DNA of 64,000 nucleotides from a virus (lineage: Duplodnaviria; Caudoviricetes), in the IMG/VR virus record IMGVR_UViG_3300021400_000027, positions 64,001 through 128,000 of that record, one strand, 5' to 3'. Under the pieces are notes generated by a model. That model was given only the letters and a program-made list of their open reading frames with translations, did no database searches and was not told the origin of the DNA. Numbering within the stretch: the first letter of the stretch is position 1; the number at the start of each line of letters is the position of its first letter. Shown here piece by piece: positions 55,883 to 63,077 of this stretch. The translations under genes and the position numbers were made by a program.

Positions 55883-55956
55883 TGCCCTGTGGACAAGTGG
55901 CTTAAGTTGGGAGTCTCTAAAACTCTAAGACCTCCGTTCGAATCGGAGCAGGGCAA
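55883..55956 (+). tRNA. Amber suppressor tRNA (CTA anticodon), Gln-type acceptor
   Basis: GGAGT-CTCTAAA-ACTCT with anticodon at 55917-55919; TGCCCTG/CAGGGCA acceptor like tRNA-Gln; own promoter at 55819-55847. Confidence 0.9.
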
Positions 55957-56416: not shown

Positions 56417-56490
56417 GGGAGAGTAGCTCAGTCGGTGGTAGCAAACGGCTGTTAACCGTTAGGTCAAGGGTTCGAGTCCCTTCTCTCCCG
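56417..56490 (+). tRNA. tRNA-Asn(GTT)
   Basis: AACGG-CTGTTAA-CCGTT. Confidence 0.9.
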
Positions 56491-56500
56491 TTATTTAAAT

Positions 56501-56573
56501 GGGGTTGTAGTTCAGTTGGGAGAACGTTTGTCCTGCAAACAAAAGGTCGTGGGTTCGATTCCCACCTTCTCCA
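56501..56573 (+). tRNA. tRNA-Ala(TGC), acceptor mismatches
   Basis: G3-U70; TTTGT-CCTGCAA-ACAAA. Confidence 0.8.
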
Positions 56574-56577
56574 CTTT

Positions 56578-56654
56578 GGGAACGTAGCTTAGTTGGTAAA
56601 AGCACTCGGCTGATAACCGAGAGACCAGCGGTTCGAGTCCGCTCGTTCCCACCA
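56578..56654 (+). tRNA. tRNA-Ile(GAT)
   Basis: CTCGG-CTGATAA-CCGAG; CCA encoded. Confidence 0.92.
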
Positions 56655-56733: not shown

Positions 56734-56818
56734 GGGTAAGTATGCAAACTGGTGAAGCGAGCTGTCTGTAAAACAGTTGCCATTGGCGTTGTAGGTTCGA
56801 GTCCTACCTTACCCACCA
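56734..56818 (+). tRNA. tRNA-Tyr(GTA)
   Basis: GCTGT-CTGTAAA-ACAGT, variable arm, ACCA. Confidence 0.92.
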
Positions 56819-58217: not shown

Positions 58218-58347
58218 AAGATACGTACAGCAAACCACTTAGCTTAGGAATTTTAATCCCCGTGATGCAGGTTCGAGTCCTGTCTTTACAGTCTTTACTG
58301 TAAAGTAGCTTAATTGGCAGAGCAGGTAAATGCAAACAACGTATCTT
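58218..58347 (+). ncRNA. CAGCAA-stem RNA copy 5 enclosing circularly permuted tRNA-Lys(TTT)
   Basis: Order anticodon arm, T arm, acceptor hairpin CTTTACAG/CTGTAAAG, D arm; inside AAGATACGT/ACGTATCTT. Confidence 0.8.
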
Positions 58348-58512: not shown

Positions 58513-58635
58513 AAGACACATCAGCAAAACAATTCTTTTGCATTGGGAGCATGAGTTAGAGGTTCGATTCCTCTATCCACGACCAAATTATACTGTGGAT
58601 TGGTGAAATGGTATCACGCATTATAAGTGTGTCTT
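58513..58635 (+). ncRNA. CAGCAA-stem RNA copy 6 enclosing circularly permuted tRNA-Pro(TGG)
   Basis: TGC-ATTGGGA-GCATG, T arm, ATCCACG-ACCA, linker, TGTGGAT, D arm; inside AAGACACA/TGTGTCTT. Confidence 0.82.
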
Positions 58636-59049: not shown

Positions 59050-59553
59050 ATGAATACTAAAAAATTTTATCGTGGTAATGGTCAAATCGTAACCTACGAT
59101 GGAATGATGAAAGTAATTGCAGACTACATCATGGAAGATACGAAAAGTGATTATGAAATCACAGTAGGCACAGATAGCCAAAACCATGACCTAACAAAAA
59201 TGGTTGAAGTTATCGCTGTACATCGTGTTGGAAAAGGTGGTATCTTCTTCTACAGAACAGAATATGTTCGTAAAATTCGAGTTTTAAAAGAAAAAATTGT
59301 TGAAGAAACATCTCGTTCTTTAGAGAACGCAGAGGGGTTATTAGATACAGTTCAACTTTATTTACTCGAAAAAGATATTGATATTGACAAACTCAATATT
59401 CATTTTGTAATTCATTGTGATATTGGTCATGCCGGCAAGACACAAGCACTTATTAAAGAAATTGTTTCTTGGGTTCAGTCTTGTGGTTATGAATGTCAGA
59501 TTAAGCCAGATAGCTATGCTGCGTCTGGTATTGCAAACAAAATTTCTAAGTGA
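59050..59553 (+). CDS. YkuK/DUF458 RNase H-like protein
   Basis: VGTDSQ, HR.GKGG.FF, ETSRSL, IH.DIG..G.T, IKPDSYAAS..A.K. Confidence 0.88.
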   Translation: MNTKKFYRGNGQIVTYDGMMKVIADYIMEDTKSDYEITVGTDSQNHDLTKMVEVIAVHRVGKGGIFFYRTEYVRKIRVLKEKIVEETSRSLENAEGLLDTVQLYLLEKDIDIDKLNIHFVIHCDIGHAGKTQALIKEIVSWVQSCGYECQIKPDSYAASGIANKISK

Positions 59554-60729: not shown

Positions 60730-60802
60730 GGAGTCGGTAGTGTAATGGCTAACACGTCAGTTTGTGGCACTGATAATGAGAGTTCGATTCTCTCCCTTCT
60801 CC
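60730..60802 (+). tRNA. tRNA-His(GTG), acceptor mismatches
   Basis: TCAGT-TTGTGGC-ACTGA; G-1. Confidence 0.8.
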
Positions 60803-60891
60803 CTTGGTGCGCAGGTTTGATGCAATGCGACATGTTCAGAAATCCGTGTACTATAGAGTATTCCTGCACAATCTATAGCGGTATTTAATTA

Positions 60892-61036
60892 AAGACACTA
60901 CAGCAAAACATTTCTAAATGGACTGTAAATCCGTTGGGGAAGTCCCTTCGTAGGTGCAAATCCTATCCTCGCCCACCAAAATATGGGCGAGTAGCCAAGT
61001 AGACAAAGGCGACGGACCATATATTAAAAGTGTCTT
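60892..61036 (+). ncRNA. CAGCAA-stem RNA copy 9 enclosing circularly permuted tRNA-Tyr(GTA)
   Basis: ATGGA-CTGTAAA-TCCGT, V arm, T arm, CTCGCCC-ACCA, linker, GGGCGAG, D arm, ACGGAC; inside AAGACACT/AGTGTCTT. Confidence 0.82.
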
Positions 61037-61041
61037 GAAAT

Positions 61042-61122
61042 GTGGAGATGCCAGAGTGGTTGATTGGGACGGACTGCAACTCCGTTGCGTAAGCCTCGTC
61101 GGTTCGAATCCGACTCTCCACT
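61042..61122 (+). tRNA. tRNA-Cys(GCA) with enlarged variable arm
   Basis: ACGGA-CTGCAAC-TCCGT; U73. Confidence 0.85.
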
Positions 61123-61607: not shown

Positions 61608-63077
61608 ATGAGTTTTGTAAATCAGTTCAAAAGAATGTCCGATATGACCACCACTGAAAATGGAGGTCTGGCTTATAAGTCTACCGGCTCTGACCTTTTA
61701 TCTCTGTTCGCTAATATTGGCGGTATGAGAGATAGAAATGATAGCGATATTATTTCTGCTTGGAAACTCGCAAGAAAGGAAGATAAGCTGTTAGCAGATA
61801 ACCTTATTCTCTATTCTCGTGATATTCGTAATGCCGGACTTGGTGAGCGTAGAATTGGCAGACTCTTATTAAAAGAGCTTGCTATGGTTGACCCTCGTAA
61901 GGTAGAGCGTAATCTCCAGAAGATTGTCGATGCCGGCAGATGGGACGACTTGTTCGTATTTGAGGGAACTCCTGCATGGGATGAAACCGTTCGCTTTATC
62001 CAGAATCAGTTCCGTACTGATGTCAATGGAATGAAGAAGAACGAACCTATTTCTCTGCTTGCAAAGTGGCTTCCTTCTATTAACGCTTCTTCTGAAAAGA
62101 CTAAGCGTCTGGCTCGTACTTTCTGCACCTTGTTCAGCTTAACTCCTCGTACTTATCGTAAGAGCCTCTCCGCTATGCGTAAGTACATTGATGTAGTTGA
62201 ACGTAAGATGTCAGCTGGTCAGTGGAATGAAATTAACTTTGAAACTGTTCCTTCTGTTGCAATGTCTCGTTATATTGCAACCTACAATAAGCGTTGTCAG
62301 GAACGCTTTGCCGAATACAAGGCTTCCCTTGAAAAGGGCGAAGCTAAGGTTAATGCGGCAACTCTCTTCCCTTATGACATTGCTTTAAAGTTCATAGGCA
62401 ATTGTAATGGCTATGGTTGTAGATATACTCATCTGGATGCAGTTGATGAAGCACAGTGGAAGGCTCTGCCTAACTATGTTTCTGACGAGTTCGATGTAGT
62501 TGTAATGGCAGACGTATCCGGCTCTATGTACTCTTCTGATAGTCGTCCTATGGCAACTTCTATTGGTCTGGCAACTTACTTTGCTCAACGCAACAAAGGT
62601 GCATATCACAATATGTATTTAAGTTTCACTGACCGTCCTCATTTCATTACCCTGCGTGACGAGATGTCGCTGGAAGATTGCTTAAAATACGTGTTAAAGG
62701 AGGGTGTTGGCTACAATACTGACCTTGACCTTGCTTTTGAAGCTATCTATAAAGTGGCAAGCACTGCCGGAGAAGCACCTAAAGCTCTTGTCATTATTAG
62801 TGATATGGAGATTGATTCTTTCTGCGGAGAGAATTATGAATCCATTGCTCAAAAATGGCAGAGAATTTACGCTAAAGCTGGATTAACTGCTCCTAAGTTA
62901 ATTTGGTGGAATGTAGATTCCAGAGAGGGTAGAGTTCTCGCTCGTCAGGACGAGAATGTAGGATTTGTATCAGGTTATGGTGTCGGTCCGTTCAAGAATC
63001 TTCAATCTCTGATTGAAAAAGACGCTTATACCGCAATGGTAGAAATCCTCTCTCAGGACGCTTTCACTTGGAATTAA
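61608..63077 (+). CDS. DUF2828 / TROVE(Ro60)-like protein with C-terminal vWA domain
   Basis: TENG..AY.ST, RDIR..GLGER, GRWDDL, SLLAKWLPS, MIDAS DVSGSM, ISDME.D, WNV; ATG 61608 behind AAGGAG. Confidence 0.88.
   Translation: MSFVNQFKRMSDMTTTENGGLAYKSTGSDLLSLFANIGGMRDRNDSDIISAWKLARKEDKLLADNLILYSRDIRNAGLGERRIGRLLLKELAMVDPRKVERNLQKIVDAGRWDDLFVFEGTPAWDETVRFIQNQFRTDVNGMKKNEPISLLAKWLPSINASSEKTKRLARTFCTLFSLTPRTYRKSLSAMRKYIDVVERKMSAGQWNEINFETVPSVAMSRYIATYNKRCQERFAEYKASLEKGEAKVNAATLFPYDIALKFIGNCNGYGCRYTHLDAVDEAQWKALPNYVSDEFDVVVMADVSGSMYSSDSRPMATSIGLATYFAQRNKGAYHNMYLSFTDRPHFITLRDEMSLEDCLKYVLKEGVGYNTDLDLAFEAIYKVASTAGEAPKALVIISDMEIDSFCGENYESIAQKWQRIYAKAGLTAPKLIWWNVDSREGRVLARQDENVGFVSGYGVGPFKNLQSLIEKDAYTAMVEILSQDAFTWN

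What the first reader, a model, noticed from the sequence alone, without database searches (positions are those of the whole stretch)
60892..61036. Permuted tRNA-Tyr with terminal redundancy of the anticodon-stem 5' strand
Seen: cargo begins ATGGAC-TGTAAATCCGT and ends D arm-ACGGAC, so both ends carry a strand able to pair with TCCGT; ACCA is retained. Inference: this gives two alternative folds (local anticodon hairpin, or a YrlA-like fold with the handle replacing the anticodon loop). The short direct repeat could also be a scar of how the permuted copy formed.
Basis: partly seen in the sequence, partly recalled or inferred. Interest (0 to 1): 0.7.

Follow-up and report, generated by a model that had tools for sequence, protein, structure and literature searches.

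The report
Permuted tRNA-Tyr mimic with spare strand
A small phage RNA is a scrambled copy of tyrosine tRNA that carries one strand of its anticodon stem twice, so it can fold in two ways. Relatives show that the sealed, Y-RNA-like fold is the conserved one, and the spare strand is most likely left over from how such tRNA mimics arise.

Summary
Window 60892-61036 is a handle-flanked, circularly permuted tRNA-Tyr(GUA). Once de-permuted, ARAGORN calls it tRNA-Tyr. AUGGA (60918-22) and ACGGA (61012-16) can each pair with UCCGU (60930-34), and ACCA is kept. The 3' linkers of sister elements are A/T-rich, so the extra GGA is unlikely by chance (p about 0.002, or 0.02 over ten elements).

The two folds are nearly equal in energy: -43.3 kcal/mol for the local hairpin, -45.3 for the distal closure.

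I found three orthologues:
- One (L135) keeps both copies, and its substitutions preserve pairing.
- Two (L218, L219) keep only the 3' copy. Their anticodon loop has decayed to a bulge.
- The cloverleaf closed by the 3' copy is kept in all four, with 11 compensatory pairs. The local hairpin is intact in two of four.

Fourteen other permuted elements have a nicked anticodon stem and no full redundancy.

The neighbouring DUF2828 protein models as Ro60.

Best reading: a YrlA-like tRNA-Tyr mimic whose working fold is the sealed cloverleaf. The duplicated strand is an inherited remnant of a tandem-tRNA origin. A real two-state switch is not excluded.

Earlier notes of this scan described the family on this same genome, not on other DNA. 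The orthologues are new here.

The parts
60892..60899 (+). Handle, 5' strand (AAGACACU) of the closing stem shared by the phage's Y-like RNAs
   Evidence: It pairs with 61029-61036. In four orthologues 3 of the 7 scored handle pairs change on both sides and stay paired. The same stem type closes 10-11 elements in the array.
60900..60906 (+). Conserved unpaired motif ACAGCAA next to the handle
   Evidence: Invariant in all four orthologues and present in nearly all handle elements. Its role as a protein-binding site is inferred.
60907..60917 (+). A/U-rich 5' linker
   Evidence: Only about 50% identical to the L135 orthologue, close to the random level for this composition.
60918..60922 (+). 5' copy of anticodon-stem strand 27-31 (AUGGA). 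It can pair with 60930-60934 (local hairpin), or through AUGG with CCAU at 61017-61020
   Evidence: Kept as GCGGA in L135 and lost in L218 and L219.
60923..60929 (+). Tyr anticodon loop CUGUAAA (anticodon GUA)
   Evidence: ARAGORN on the de-permuted sequence. It reads CAGUAAA in L135 and survives only as AAGUAAA or AGGUAAA in L218 and L219.
60930..60934 (+). Anticodon-stem 3' strand 39-43 (UCCGU), the contested partner of both copies
60935..60949 (+). Long (class II) variable arm
   Evidence: All three of its pairs change on both sides among the orthologues and stay paired.
60950..60966 (+). T arm, GUAGG UGCAAAU CCUAU, followed by one extra C at 60967
   Evidence: The same T loop occurs in natural, unpermuted tRNA-Tyr genes.
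60968..60991 (+). Sealed acceptor stem: CUCGCCC, then ACCA (60975-60978), spacer AAAUAU, then GGGCGAG
   Evidence: 7-8 bp, paired in all orthologues, with one pair changed on both sides. ACCA is kept in all four.
60994..61010 (+). D arm (GCC AAGUAGACAAA GGC), followed by G26 at 61011
   Evidence: Two of its three stem pairs change on both sides. The D loop matches natural tRNA-Tyr genes of the UGCAAAU type.
61012..61017 (+). 3' copy of strand 27-31 plus C (ACGGAC). It closes the cloverleaf by pairing with 60930-60934
   Evidence: Pair probability about 0.95 in E9. Conserved in 4 of 4 orthologues, with 27:43 as A-U, G.U or G-C. It is part of the RNAalifold consensus.
61018..61028 (+). A/U-rich 3' linker. 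Its first bases, together with C61017, form CCAU, which is complementary to AUGG of the 5' copy
   Evidence: Adding AUGG/CCAU lowers the energy of the distal fold by 1.9 kcal/mol. Matching short helices: CGG/CCG in L135, and AACC/GGUU in the L218 MFE.
61029..61036 (+). Handle, 3' strand (AGUGUCUU). tRNA-Cys starts 6 nt later, at 61042
61608..63077 (+). DUF2828 + DUF7788/vWA gene, the presumed protein partner (Ro60-like fold)
   Evidence: Pfam hits. AlphaFold model with pLDDT 90.1. The best 12 PDB matches are all Ro60/TROVE proteins over the full length, E 2.6e-9 to 3e-5.

Best explanation
E9 is one of this phage's Y-RNA-like small RNAs.

Proposed parts and roles:
- A conserved 8-bp handle plus the ACAGCAA motif is presumed to dock the RNA on the Ro60-shaped DUF2828-vWA protein encoded 570 nt downstream.
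- The handle carries a circularly permuted tRNA-Tyr.
- The working fold is a sealed cloverleaf. The 3' copy ACGGA (61012-16) pairs with UCCGU (60930-34), closing the variable arm, T arm, looped acceptor stem and D arm. This is the YrlA topology.
- The 5' copy AUGGA and the GUA loop are what remains of the parental tRNA-Tyr anticodon arm.

Proposed origin: the element most likely arose from a stretch of two tandem tRNA-Tyr genes, running from nt 27 of the first to about nt 32 of the second. That stretch holds strand 27-32 twice.

Consequence: the leftover gives a competing local hairpin of almost equal stability. In the sealed fold it is instead taken up as a short helper helix (AUGG/CCAU) beside an 8-nt bulge. 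The hairpin is tolerated or mildly useful, not essential.

Shown here: the sequence features, the permuted tRNA identity, conservation and covariation of the sealed fold, loss of the local hairpin in two orthologues, and the Ro60-like fold of the neighbouring protein.

Inferred: binding to that protein, the tandem-gene origin, and which fold dominates in the cell.
For: - Identity: the de-permuted sequence is called tRNA-Tyr(gta).
- Sealed fold: four orthologues (E9, L135:6618-6763, L218:2804-2953 minus strand, L219:798-945 minus strand) keep it. 99.2% of cells are paired and 11 pairs change on both sides. 0 of 500 shuffles reach that, and slid controls reach 34-48% paired.
- Distal stem: 95.8% paired, with 27:43 as A-U, G.U or G-C. 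RNAalifold finds it on its own.
- Local helix: only 70% paired and broken in L218 and L219. There the loop survives as a relic, (A/G)GUAAA.
- Thermodynamics for E9: distal pairs have P about 0.95 and local pairs 0.03.
- Origin: the order is 3' half, ACCA, 4-6 nt spacer, 5' half, like the junctions between neighbouring tRNAs in these arrays. My model of the permuted core also scores on true tRNA-tRNA junctions, for example window 56466-56525 at 44.7 bits.
- Tandem same-anticodon tRNAs exist in related arrays.
- Parent type: the cargo matches natural unpermuted tRNA-Tyr genes with T loop UGCAAAU and D loop AAGUAGNCAAA.
- Other states in relatives: fully YrlA-like elements without an anticodon loop (L146:1659, L137:6735, L141:6336, L149:5947), and nicked elements without redundancy.
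- Protein partner: Ro60-like model.
Against: - A neutral leftover should have decayed. The flanking linkers are only about 50% identical between E9 and L135. Both still keep a fully pair-capable 5' copy, and the two substitutions there (A to G, U to C) both preserve pairing.
- The two folds differ by only about 2 kcal/mol, within model error. With the linkers left unpaired the local fold is slightly better: -39.6 against -38.8 kcal/mol.
- In L135 the model prefers the local fold.
- Transcription order favours the local hairpin first.
- The helper-helix explanation rests on 3-4 bp helices.
- Only four orthologues were found.
- No expression or binding data could be obtained.
Confidence: 0.5

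Rival explanations
1. True two-state RNA. Both folds are used. The local hairpin presents a tRNA-Tyr anticodon arm, as bait or sensor for anticodon-directed enzymes such as anticodon nucleases, Tgt or TyrRS. Strand displacement by the 3' copy converts the RNA to the sealed YrlA-like form. The balance is set by transcription order, protein binding, or a cut in the loop.
For: - The folds are nearly equal in energy, and the preference is opposite in E9 and L135.
- The local hairpin forms first in growing transcripts.
- The redundancy is kept in two lineages that are about 75% identical, with pair-preserving substitutions and a conserved G/C-rich copy inside A/U-rich linkers.
- GUA loops are also displayed by other handle elements (L002:5936, L121:157, L137:3976).
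Against: - The 5' copy and an intact loop are lost in L218 and L219, while the rest of those elements stays well conserved.
- U33 is not conserved. It is A in L135.
- No pair of the local helix shows changes on both sides.
- Conservation of the 5' copy can also be explained by the AUGG/CCAU-type helix.
- There are no experimental data.
Confidence: 0.25
2. E9 works like its sister elements E5 and E6, with a nicked anticodon stem. Positions 27-28 come from the 3' end and 29-31 from the 5' end, so a complete tRNA shape with anticodon loop is presented and the handle leaves at the nick. The extra bases at both ends are idle.
For: - Fourteen related elements have exactly this split, at 27/28 to 29/30. 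The two copies together always cover all five pairs, and 27:43 and 28:42 covary.
- E9 shares its handle and 5' linker type with E6.
Against: - The hybrid state is about 8 kcal/mol worse than the distal fold for E9 in the nearest-neighbour model.
- L218 and L219 cannot form it at all.
- Idle G/C bases would not be expected to persist in L135.
Confidence: 0.12
3. A true permuted tRNA gene. The handle is removed, the ends are joined, and the acceptor loop is opened to give a working tRNA-Tyr, as in the permuted tRNA genes of Cyanidioschyzon merolae.
For: - All tRNA-Tyr parts are present, including A73 and CCA.
- The 7-8 bp acceptor stem with a leader resembles an RNase P substrate. M. smegmatis YrlA is cut by RNase P and receives CCA (PMC4201824).
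- In related composite elements a whole tRNA sits in the acceptor loop.
Against: - There is no bulge-helix-bulge motif, and the distance from the handle to the junction is not fixed.
- The redundancy gives no defined junction.
- The phage has a normal tRNA-Tyr at 56734-56818.
- Orthologues L218 and L219 have lost the anticodon arm.
Confidence: 0.05
4. Chance resemblance: the duplicate strand has no meaning.
For: It is short: 5-6 nt with one mismatch between the copies.
Against: p is about 0.002 given the linker composition, or 0.02 corrected for ten elements. The duplicate is present again in orthologue L135.
Confidence: 0.02

Closest known systems
YrlA, the tRNA-like Y RNA bound by bacterial and phage Ro60/Rsr (Rfam RF02553; Chen et al. 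2014, PMC4201824)
   Same: - The ends form a closing stem.
- Inside lie a variable arm, a T arm, an acceptor-like stem-loop and a D arm in permuted tRNA order.
- It is encoded beside a Ro60-shaped protein.
- A 7-bp acceptor stem with CCA recalls M. smegmatis YrlA.
   Different: - E9 keeps a complete Tyr anticodon loop and a second copy of the stem strand.
- It has no Rfam YrlA match even at E <= 10.
- The handle sequence (AAGAC.../...GUCUU plus CAGCA) is its own.
- The protein partner is DUF2828, not Pfam TROVE.
- The gene sits in a phage tRNA array with about ten sister RNAs.
Circularly permuted tRNA genes of Cyanidioschyzon merolae and other algae
   Same: The 3' half lies upstream of the 5' half, joined through the acceptor end with a short spacer.
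   Different: - No bulge-helix-bulge processing signal.
- The break lies inside the anticodon stem and is duplicated.
- A normal tRNA-Tyr is present in the same genome.
- Orthologues lose the anticodon arm.
Sister elements of the same phage group with a nicked anticodon stem (E5 at 58219, E6 at 58514, and relatives)
   Same: Same handle, same permuted order, and the anticodon loop is kept.
   Different: There the two ends supply complementary parts of the strand (2+3, 1+4 or 3+2) with no full overlap. In E9 and L135 both ends carry the whole strand.
Natural tRNA-Tyr genes with T loop UGCAAAU and D loop AAGUAGNCAAA (viral contigs L235 and L258; 39 species genomes, mostly Patescibacteria MAGs)
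   Same: Same T arm, D loop, anticodon loop, class II variable arm and ACCA.
   Different: They are in normal linear order and have no handle.
Mutually exclusive helices of riboswitch and attenuator expression platforms
   Same: One strand has two competing partners. The order of transcription favours the upstream helix.
   Different: No ligand-binding domain or downstream gene-control element is evident. The competition sits inside a tRNA mimic.

Membership tests
YrlA (Rfam RF02553) | Matches the Rfam covariance model at or above the gathering score (69 bits) | tested here: not met
   No YrlA match at E <= 10 when 60800-61045 was searched alone. Sister element E5 scores 31.6 bits.
YrlA (Rfam RF02553) | tRNA-like module (V arm, T arm, acceptor-like stem-loop, D arm) enclosed by a stem formed by the RNA's two ends | tested here: met
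   All helices are conserved, with 11 compensatory pairs in four orthologues.
YrlA (Rfam RF02553) | Anticodon position occupied by the stem that leads to the ends, with no anticodon loop | tested here: not met
   E9 and L135 keep a 7-nt GUA loop and its own stem strand. L218 and L219 come close to the YrlA state, with only a loop relic as a bulge.
YrlA (Rfam RF02553) | Encoded next to a Ro60/TROVE protein | tested here: inconclusive
   Pfam finds DUF2828, DUF7788 and a weak VWA_2 hit, but not TROVE. The sequence search against PDB finds nothing. The model matches Ro60 structures over the full length, TM 0.45-0.59, E down to 2.6e-9.
YrlA (Rfam RF02553) | Bound by the Ro60 protein in the cell | not testable with these tools
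   Needs pull-down or RIP-seq.
Permuted tRNA genes (C. merolae type) | 3' half upstream of the 5' half of one tRNA | tested here: met
Permuted tRNA genes (C. merolae type) | Bulge-helix-bulge motif at the termini and maturation through a circular intermediate into a working tRNA | tested here: not met
   The termini form an 8-bp handle plus CAGCA. The distance from handle to junction differs between elements.
Canonical tRNA (RF00005) | Linear cloverleaf found by tRNA detectors | tested here: not met
   No tRNA is called at 60892-61036 by ARAGORN or Rfam. It is called only after de-permutation.

The most novel reading that the evidence does not exclude
E9 and its L135 orthologue are natural two-state tRNA mimics. 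The same RNA alternates between a form that offers a tRNA-Tyr anticodon arm and a sealed Y-RNA form, by three-strand displacement. The state could be set or read by the Ro60-like protein, or flipped when a host anticodon nuclease cuts the offered loop. Separately, the lineage would be a preserved series showing how Y RNAs are born from tandem tRNA genes: natural tRNA-Tyr, then a permuted copy with a duplicate strand, then a loop relic, then a plain YrlA-like RNA.
Probability: 0.22. Interest if true: 0.75.

Novelty: new variant of a known kind. Interest (0 to 1): 0.55.

Why it matters
Chen et al. 2014 proposed that bacterial Y RNAs such as YrlA descend from tRNAs. No intermediate forms are described there or in the papers my searches returned.

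This lineage shows several states side by side in related phages:
- A parental type of tRNA-Tyr.
- A permuted copy that still holds the whole anticodon arm plus a duplicate strand.
- Copies where the loop has decayed to a bulge.
- Loop-free YrlA-like RNAs.

That makes the origin of tRNA-mimicking Y RNAs open to test. It also points to tandem tRNA genes in phage arrays as the raw material.

If the two folds are both used, this would be a compact natural RNA switch built into a tRNA mimic, in a phage whose tRNA array suggests conflict over tRNAs with its host.

It also adds to the case that DUF2828 proteins, of which more than 7,000 relatives were scored, are Ro60-like RNA-binding proteins with their own partner RNAs.

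Tried and rejected
Tools that did not run:
The contigs of the closest DUF2828 proteins (P0001 at 99%, P0002-P0014 at 66-75% identity) could not be fetched.

Searches that led nowhere:
- The exact 16-mer of the T arm in viral contigs gave 116 or more stretches. After filtering for a handle motif only the L001 contig was related; the other flagged stretches were not handle elements.
- blastn against named phages found only ordinary tRNAs.
- The PDB sequence search with the protein found nothing.

My own errors, corrected:
- My first screens missed the L135 orthologue. I had filtered on GTTCRA-type T loops and on YTGTAAR loops. A DNA search of whole related records found it.
- The first constrained folds used a handle register shifted by one base and gave meaningless energies. 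They were redone.
- Model R1 was built with a structure shifted by one column and replaced by R2.

Ideas rejected:
- E9's odd T loop (G55) and D loop (no GG) mark a dead tRNA. Natural tRNA-Tyr genes carry the same loops.
- E9 is a recent copy of the phage's own tRNA-Tyr. The resident gene at 56734 is of a different type.

Full report
**Setting.** The window lies at 64001-128000 of a 179,787-nt phage record with 34% G+C. Between 55118 and 61500 a tRNA array of 24 genes, including a CTA suppressor, is interleaved with ten to eleven non-coding elements. These share a closing stem (AAGAY.../...RUCUU) and an unpaired CAGCA motif. All are on the + strand and all lie inside the array. Just downstream (61608-63077) is a DUF2828 + DUF7788/vWA protein. 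Its AlphaFold model (pLDDT 90.1) matches Ro60/TROVE structures over the full length. The best 12 PDB matches are all Ro60 proteins, including Thermus phage phiLo Ro60 and D. radiodurans Rsr, with E 2.6e-9 to 3e-5. Earlier notes of this scan on this same genome had already described the family. My task was one member, E9.

**The observation.** It is correct in every detail. The order is:
- handle 60892-99, ACAGCAA, linker;
- AUGGA (60918-22), CUGUAAA, UCCGU (60930-34);
- a long variable arm and the T arm GUAGG-UGCAAAU-CCUAU;
- CUCGCCC-ACCA, spacer AAAUAU, GGGCGAG;
- the D arm, G, ACGGAC (61012-17), linker, handle 61029-36.

Once de-permuted, ARAGORN calls an 88-nt tRNA-Tyr(gta). In genomic order no tRNA or YrlA model matches, even at E <= 10. 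The element folds to -43.8 kcal/mol, z = -3.46.

**Is the redundancy chance?** No. In nine sister elements with the same layout the 3' linker is 65% A, 25% U, 5.6% G and 4.2% C. A pair-capable GGA after positions 27-28 therefore has p about 0.002, or 0.02 for ten elements. It also recurs in an orthologue, described below.

**Two folds on paper.** With the handle fixed, the ensemble energies are -43.3 kcal/mol for the local hairpin, -45.3 for the distal closure and -37.0 for a hybrid nicked stem. With the linkers kept single-stranded, the local fold is -39.6 and the six-pair distal fold -38.8. The unconstrained ensemble gives the distal pairs P about 0.95 and the local pairs 0.03. Growing transcripts hold the local hairpin until the 3' copy is made. 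The difference is within the error of the energy model, so computation alone cannot pick a fold.

**Sister elements.** I tabulated which end can supply each of positions 27-31. In nine permuted elements (E5, E6, L120:4236, L002:8918, L121:2407, L146:1797, L133:5810, L143:6419, L001:8510) the 3' end always gives 27-28, sometimes 29. The 5' end gives 29 or 30 to 31. Together they cover all five pairs, and 27:43 and 28:42 covary. Five more elements in more distant phages behave the same way: L156:13582, L149:5587, L172:6608 and two in L218. The break sits at 27/28, 28/29 or 29/30. None has full redundancy. Other relatives have a full distal stem and no anticodon loop, which is the plain YrlA topology: L146:1659, L137:6735, L141:6336, L149:5947. 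E9 can do both.

**Orthologues.** My first screens missed them. A DNA search of whole related records found L135:6618-6763, 75% identical and 240 nt upstream of that phage's DUF2828 gene, which is 59% identical in protein. A pattern from the shared T arm then found L218:2804-2953 and L219:798-945, both on the minus strand.
- L135 keeps both copies: GCGGAC at the 5' end and GCGGAC at the 3' end, against UCCGU, with loop CAGUAAA. Relative to E9 the 5' copy has two substitutions, and both preserve pairing.
- L218 and L219 keep only the 3' copy (GCGGA with UCCGC). The 5' copy is replaced by non-pairing bases, and the loop survives only as AAGUAAA or AGGUAAA.

**Counting pairs on the four-sequence alignment A3.** For the cloverleaf closed by the 3' copy, 99.2% of cells are paired and 11 pairs change on both sides. 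None of 500 shuffles reaches that, and slid controls give 34-48% paired. The distal stem is 95.8% paired, with 27:43 as A-U, G.U and G-C. The local helix is 70% paired, is broken in two of four, and has no double change. RNAalifold independently returns the distal closure. The energy model prefers the distal fold in E9, L218 and L219 but the local hairpin in L135.

**A further helix.** Next to the distal stem a short helix is possible in all lineages: AUGG/CCAU in E9 (60918-21 with 61017-20, worth -1.9 kcal/mol), CGG/CCG in L135, and AACC/GGUU in L218, where it is part of the MFE. This would turn the old anticodon loop into a bulge. It could also explain why the G-rich 5' copy is kept without invoking the local hairpin. 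These helices are short, so I treat this as a lead.

**Origin.** The de-permuted E9 lineage does not resemble the phage's own tRNA-Tyr (56734-56818). It resembles natural, unpermuted tRNA-Tyr genes that share the unusual T loop UGCAAAU and D loop AAGUAGNCAAA (L235, L258 and others). Such genes occur in 39 species genomes, mostly Patescibacteria MAGs. These loops are therefore a natural tRNA-Tyr variant, not decay. The order '3' half, ACCA, short spacer, 5' half' is that of a junction between two neighbouring tRNA genes. My covariance model of the permuted core also scores on real tRNA-tRNA junctions, and tandem same-anticodon tRNAs exist in related arrays. A segment from nt 27 of one tRNA-Tyr copy to about nt 32 of the next would hold strand 27-32 twice, as E9 does. 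This origin is inferred, not shown.

**Verdict.** The most likely reading (0.5) is a YrlA-like tRNA-Tyr mimic. Its conserved, working fold is the sealed cloverleaf. Its duplicate strand and anticodon loop are an inherited remnant, lost in some lineages. A real two-state switch (0.25) remains possible, because two diverged lineages keep a fully pair-capable 5' copy inside fast-changing linkers. A nicked-stem fold like E5 and E6 (0.12), a true permuted tRNA gene (0.05) and chance (0.02) are less likely. Membership in Rfam YrlA fails on score and on the retained anticodon loop, so I file it as a new variant that works like YrlA.

Noticed in passing
L001:8510-8747; L133:5810-6010; L143:6419-6616: Composite handle elements. 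A complete tRNA-like gene, with its own ACCA and short spacers, sits inside the acceptor loop of an outer permuted tRNA. In L133 ARAGORN calls the inner one tRNA-Leu(aag), and in L143 an odd tRNA. Releasing the inner tRNA would split the outer mimic into two RNAs.
   Followed up: partly
window 58219-58346, 58514-58634; L120:4236; L002:8918; L121:2407; L146:1797; L156:13582; L149:5587; L172:6608; L218 (minus strand): Fourteen permuted tRNA mimics have an anticodon stem assembled from both RNA ends, nicked at 27/28 to 29/30, with covarying long-range pairs 27:43 and 28:42. The design reaches phages whose DUF2828 protein is only 33-45% identical.
   Followed up: partly
window 60804-60891: An 88-nt gap between tRNA-His and E9 has no ORF. 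It holds an imperfect inverted repeat (GUGCGCAGG ... CCUGCAC) and the 8-mer AAAUCCGU, which recurs in E9's anticodon arm at 60927. In the three orthologues the element follows a tRNA directly instead.
   Followed up: no
window 60899-60903 with 60923-60927: In E9's MFE the freed anticodon loop CUGUA pairs with UACAG, which overlaps the conserved CAGCA motif beside the handle. The sealed fold might therefore mask the presumed protein-binding motif.
   Followed up: no
L002:5936-6037; L121:157-257; L137:3976-4091: Tyr-type GUA loops are shown by other handle elements. Two minimal ones have only an A/U stem, a T arm and a hairpin. One is an E7-type element, where the window's copy (58801) has GUU.
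   Followed up: no
L133:622-744: This permuted element carries the handle's 3' strand twice (AACGUAU, then 10 nt later AACGUAUCU). It is another case of a duplicated strand, here in the handle.
   Followed up: no
Genome-contig loci L274-L312: tRNA-Tyr genes with T loop UGCAAAU are found in 39 species genomes, mostly Patescibacteria (Saccharibacteria, Parcubacteria, Falkowbacteria), plus some Gammaproteobacteria and Omnitrophota MAGs. Whether they are chromosomal or phage-borne was not checked.
   Followed up: no
window 59050-59553; L120:5856-6373: A PF04308 (RNase H-like, formerly DUF458) gene sits inside the tRNA and handle-RNA array. It is conserved at the same place in a relative.
   Followed up: no
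window 55883-55956; L120:2718-2866; L133:1604-1759; L218: CTA suppressor tRNAs, in tandem pairs in L120 and L133, point to TAG being read as a residue in this phage group.
   Followed up: no
window 56466-56525, 56549-56603 and many loci: A covariance model of the permuted core (T arm, sealed acceptor, D arm) scores up to 44.7 bits on ordinary junctions between neighbouring tRNA genes. Such searches need a check that the acceptor strands really pair.
   Followed up: yes
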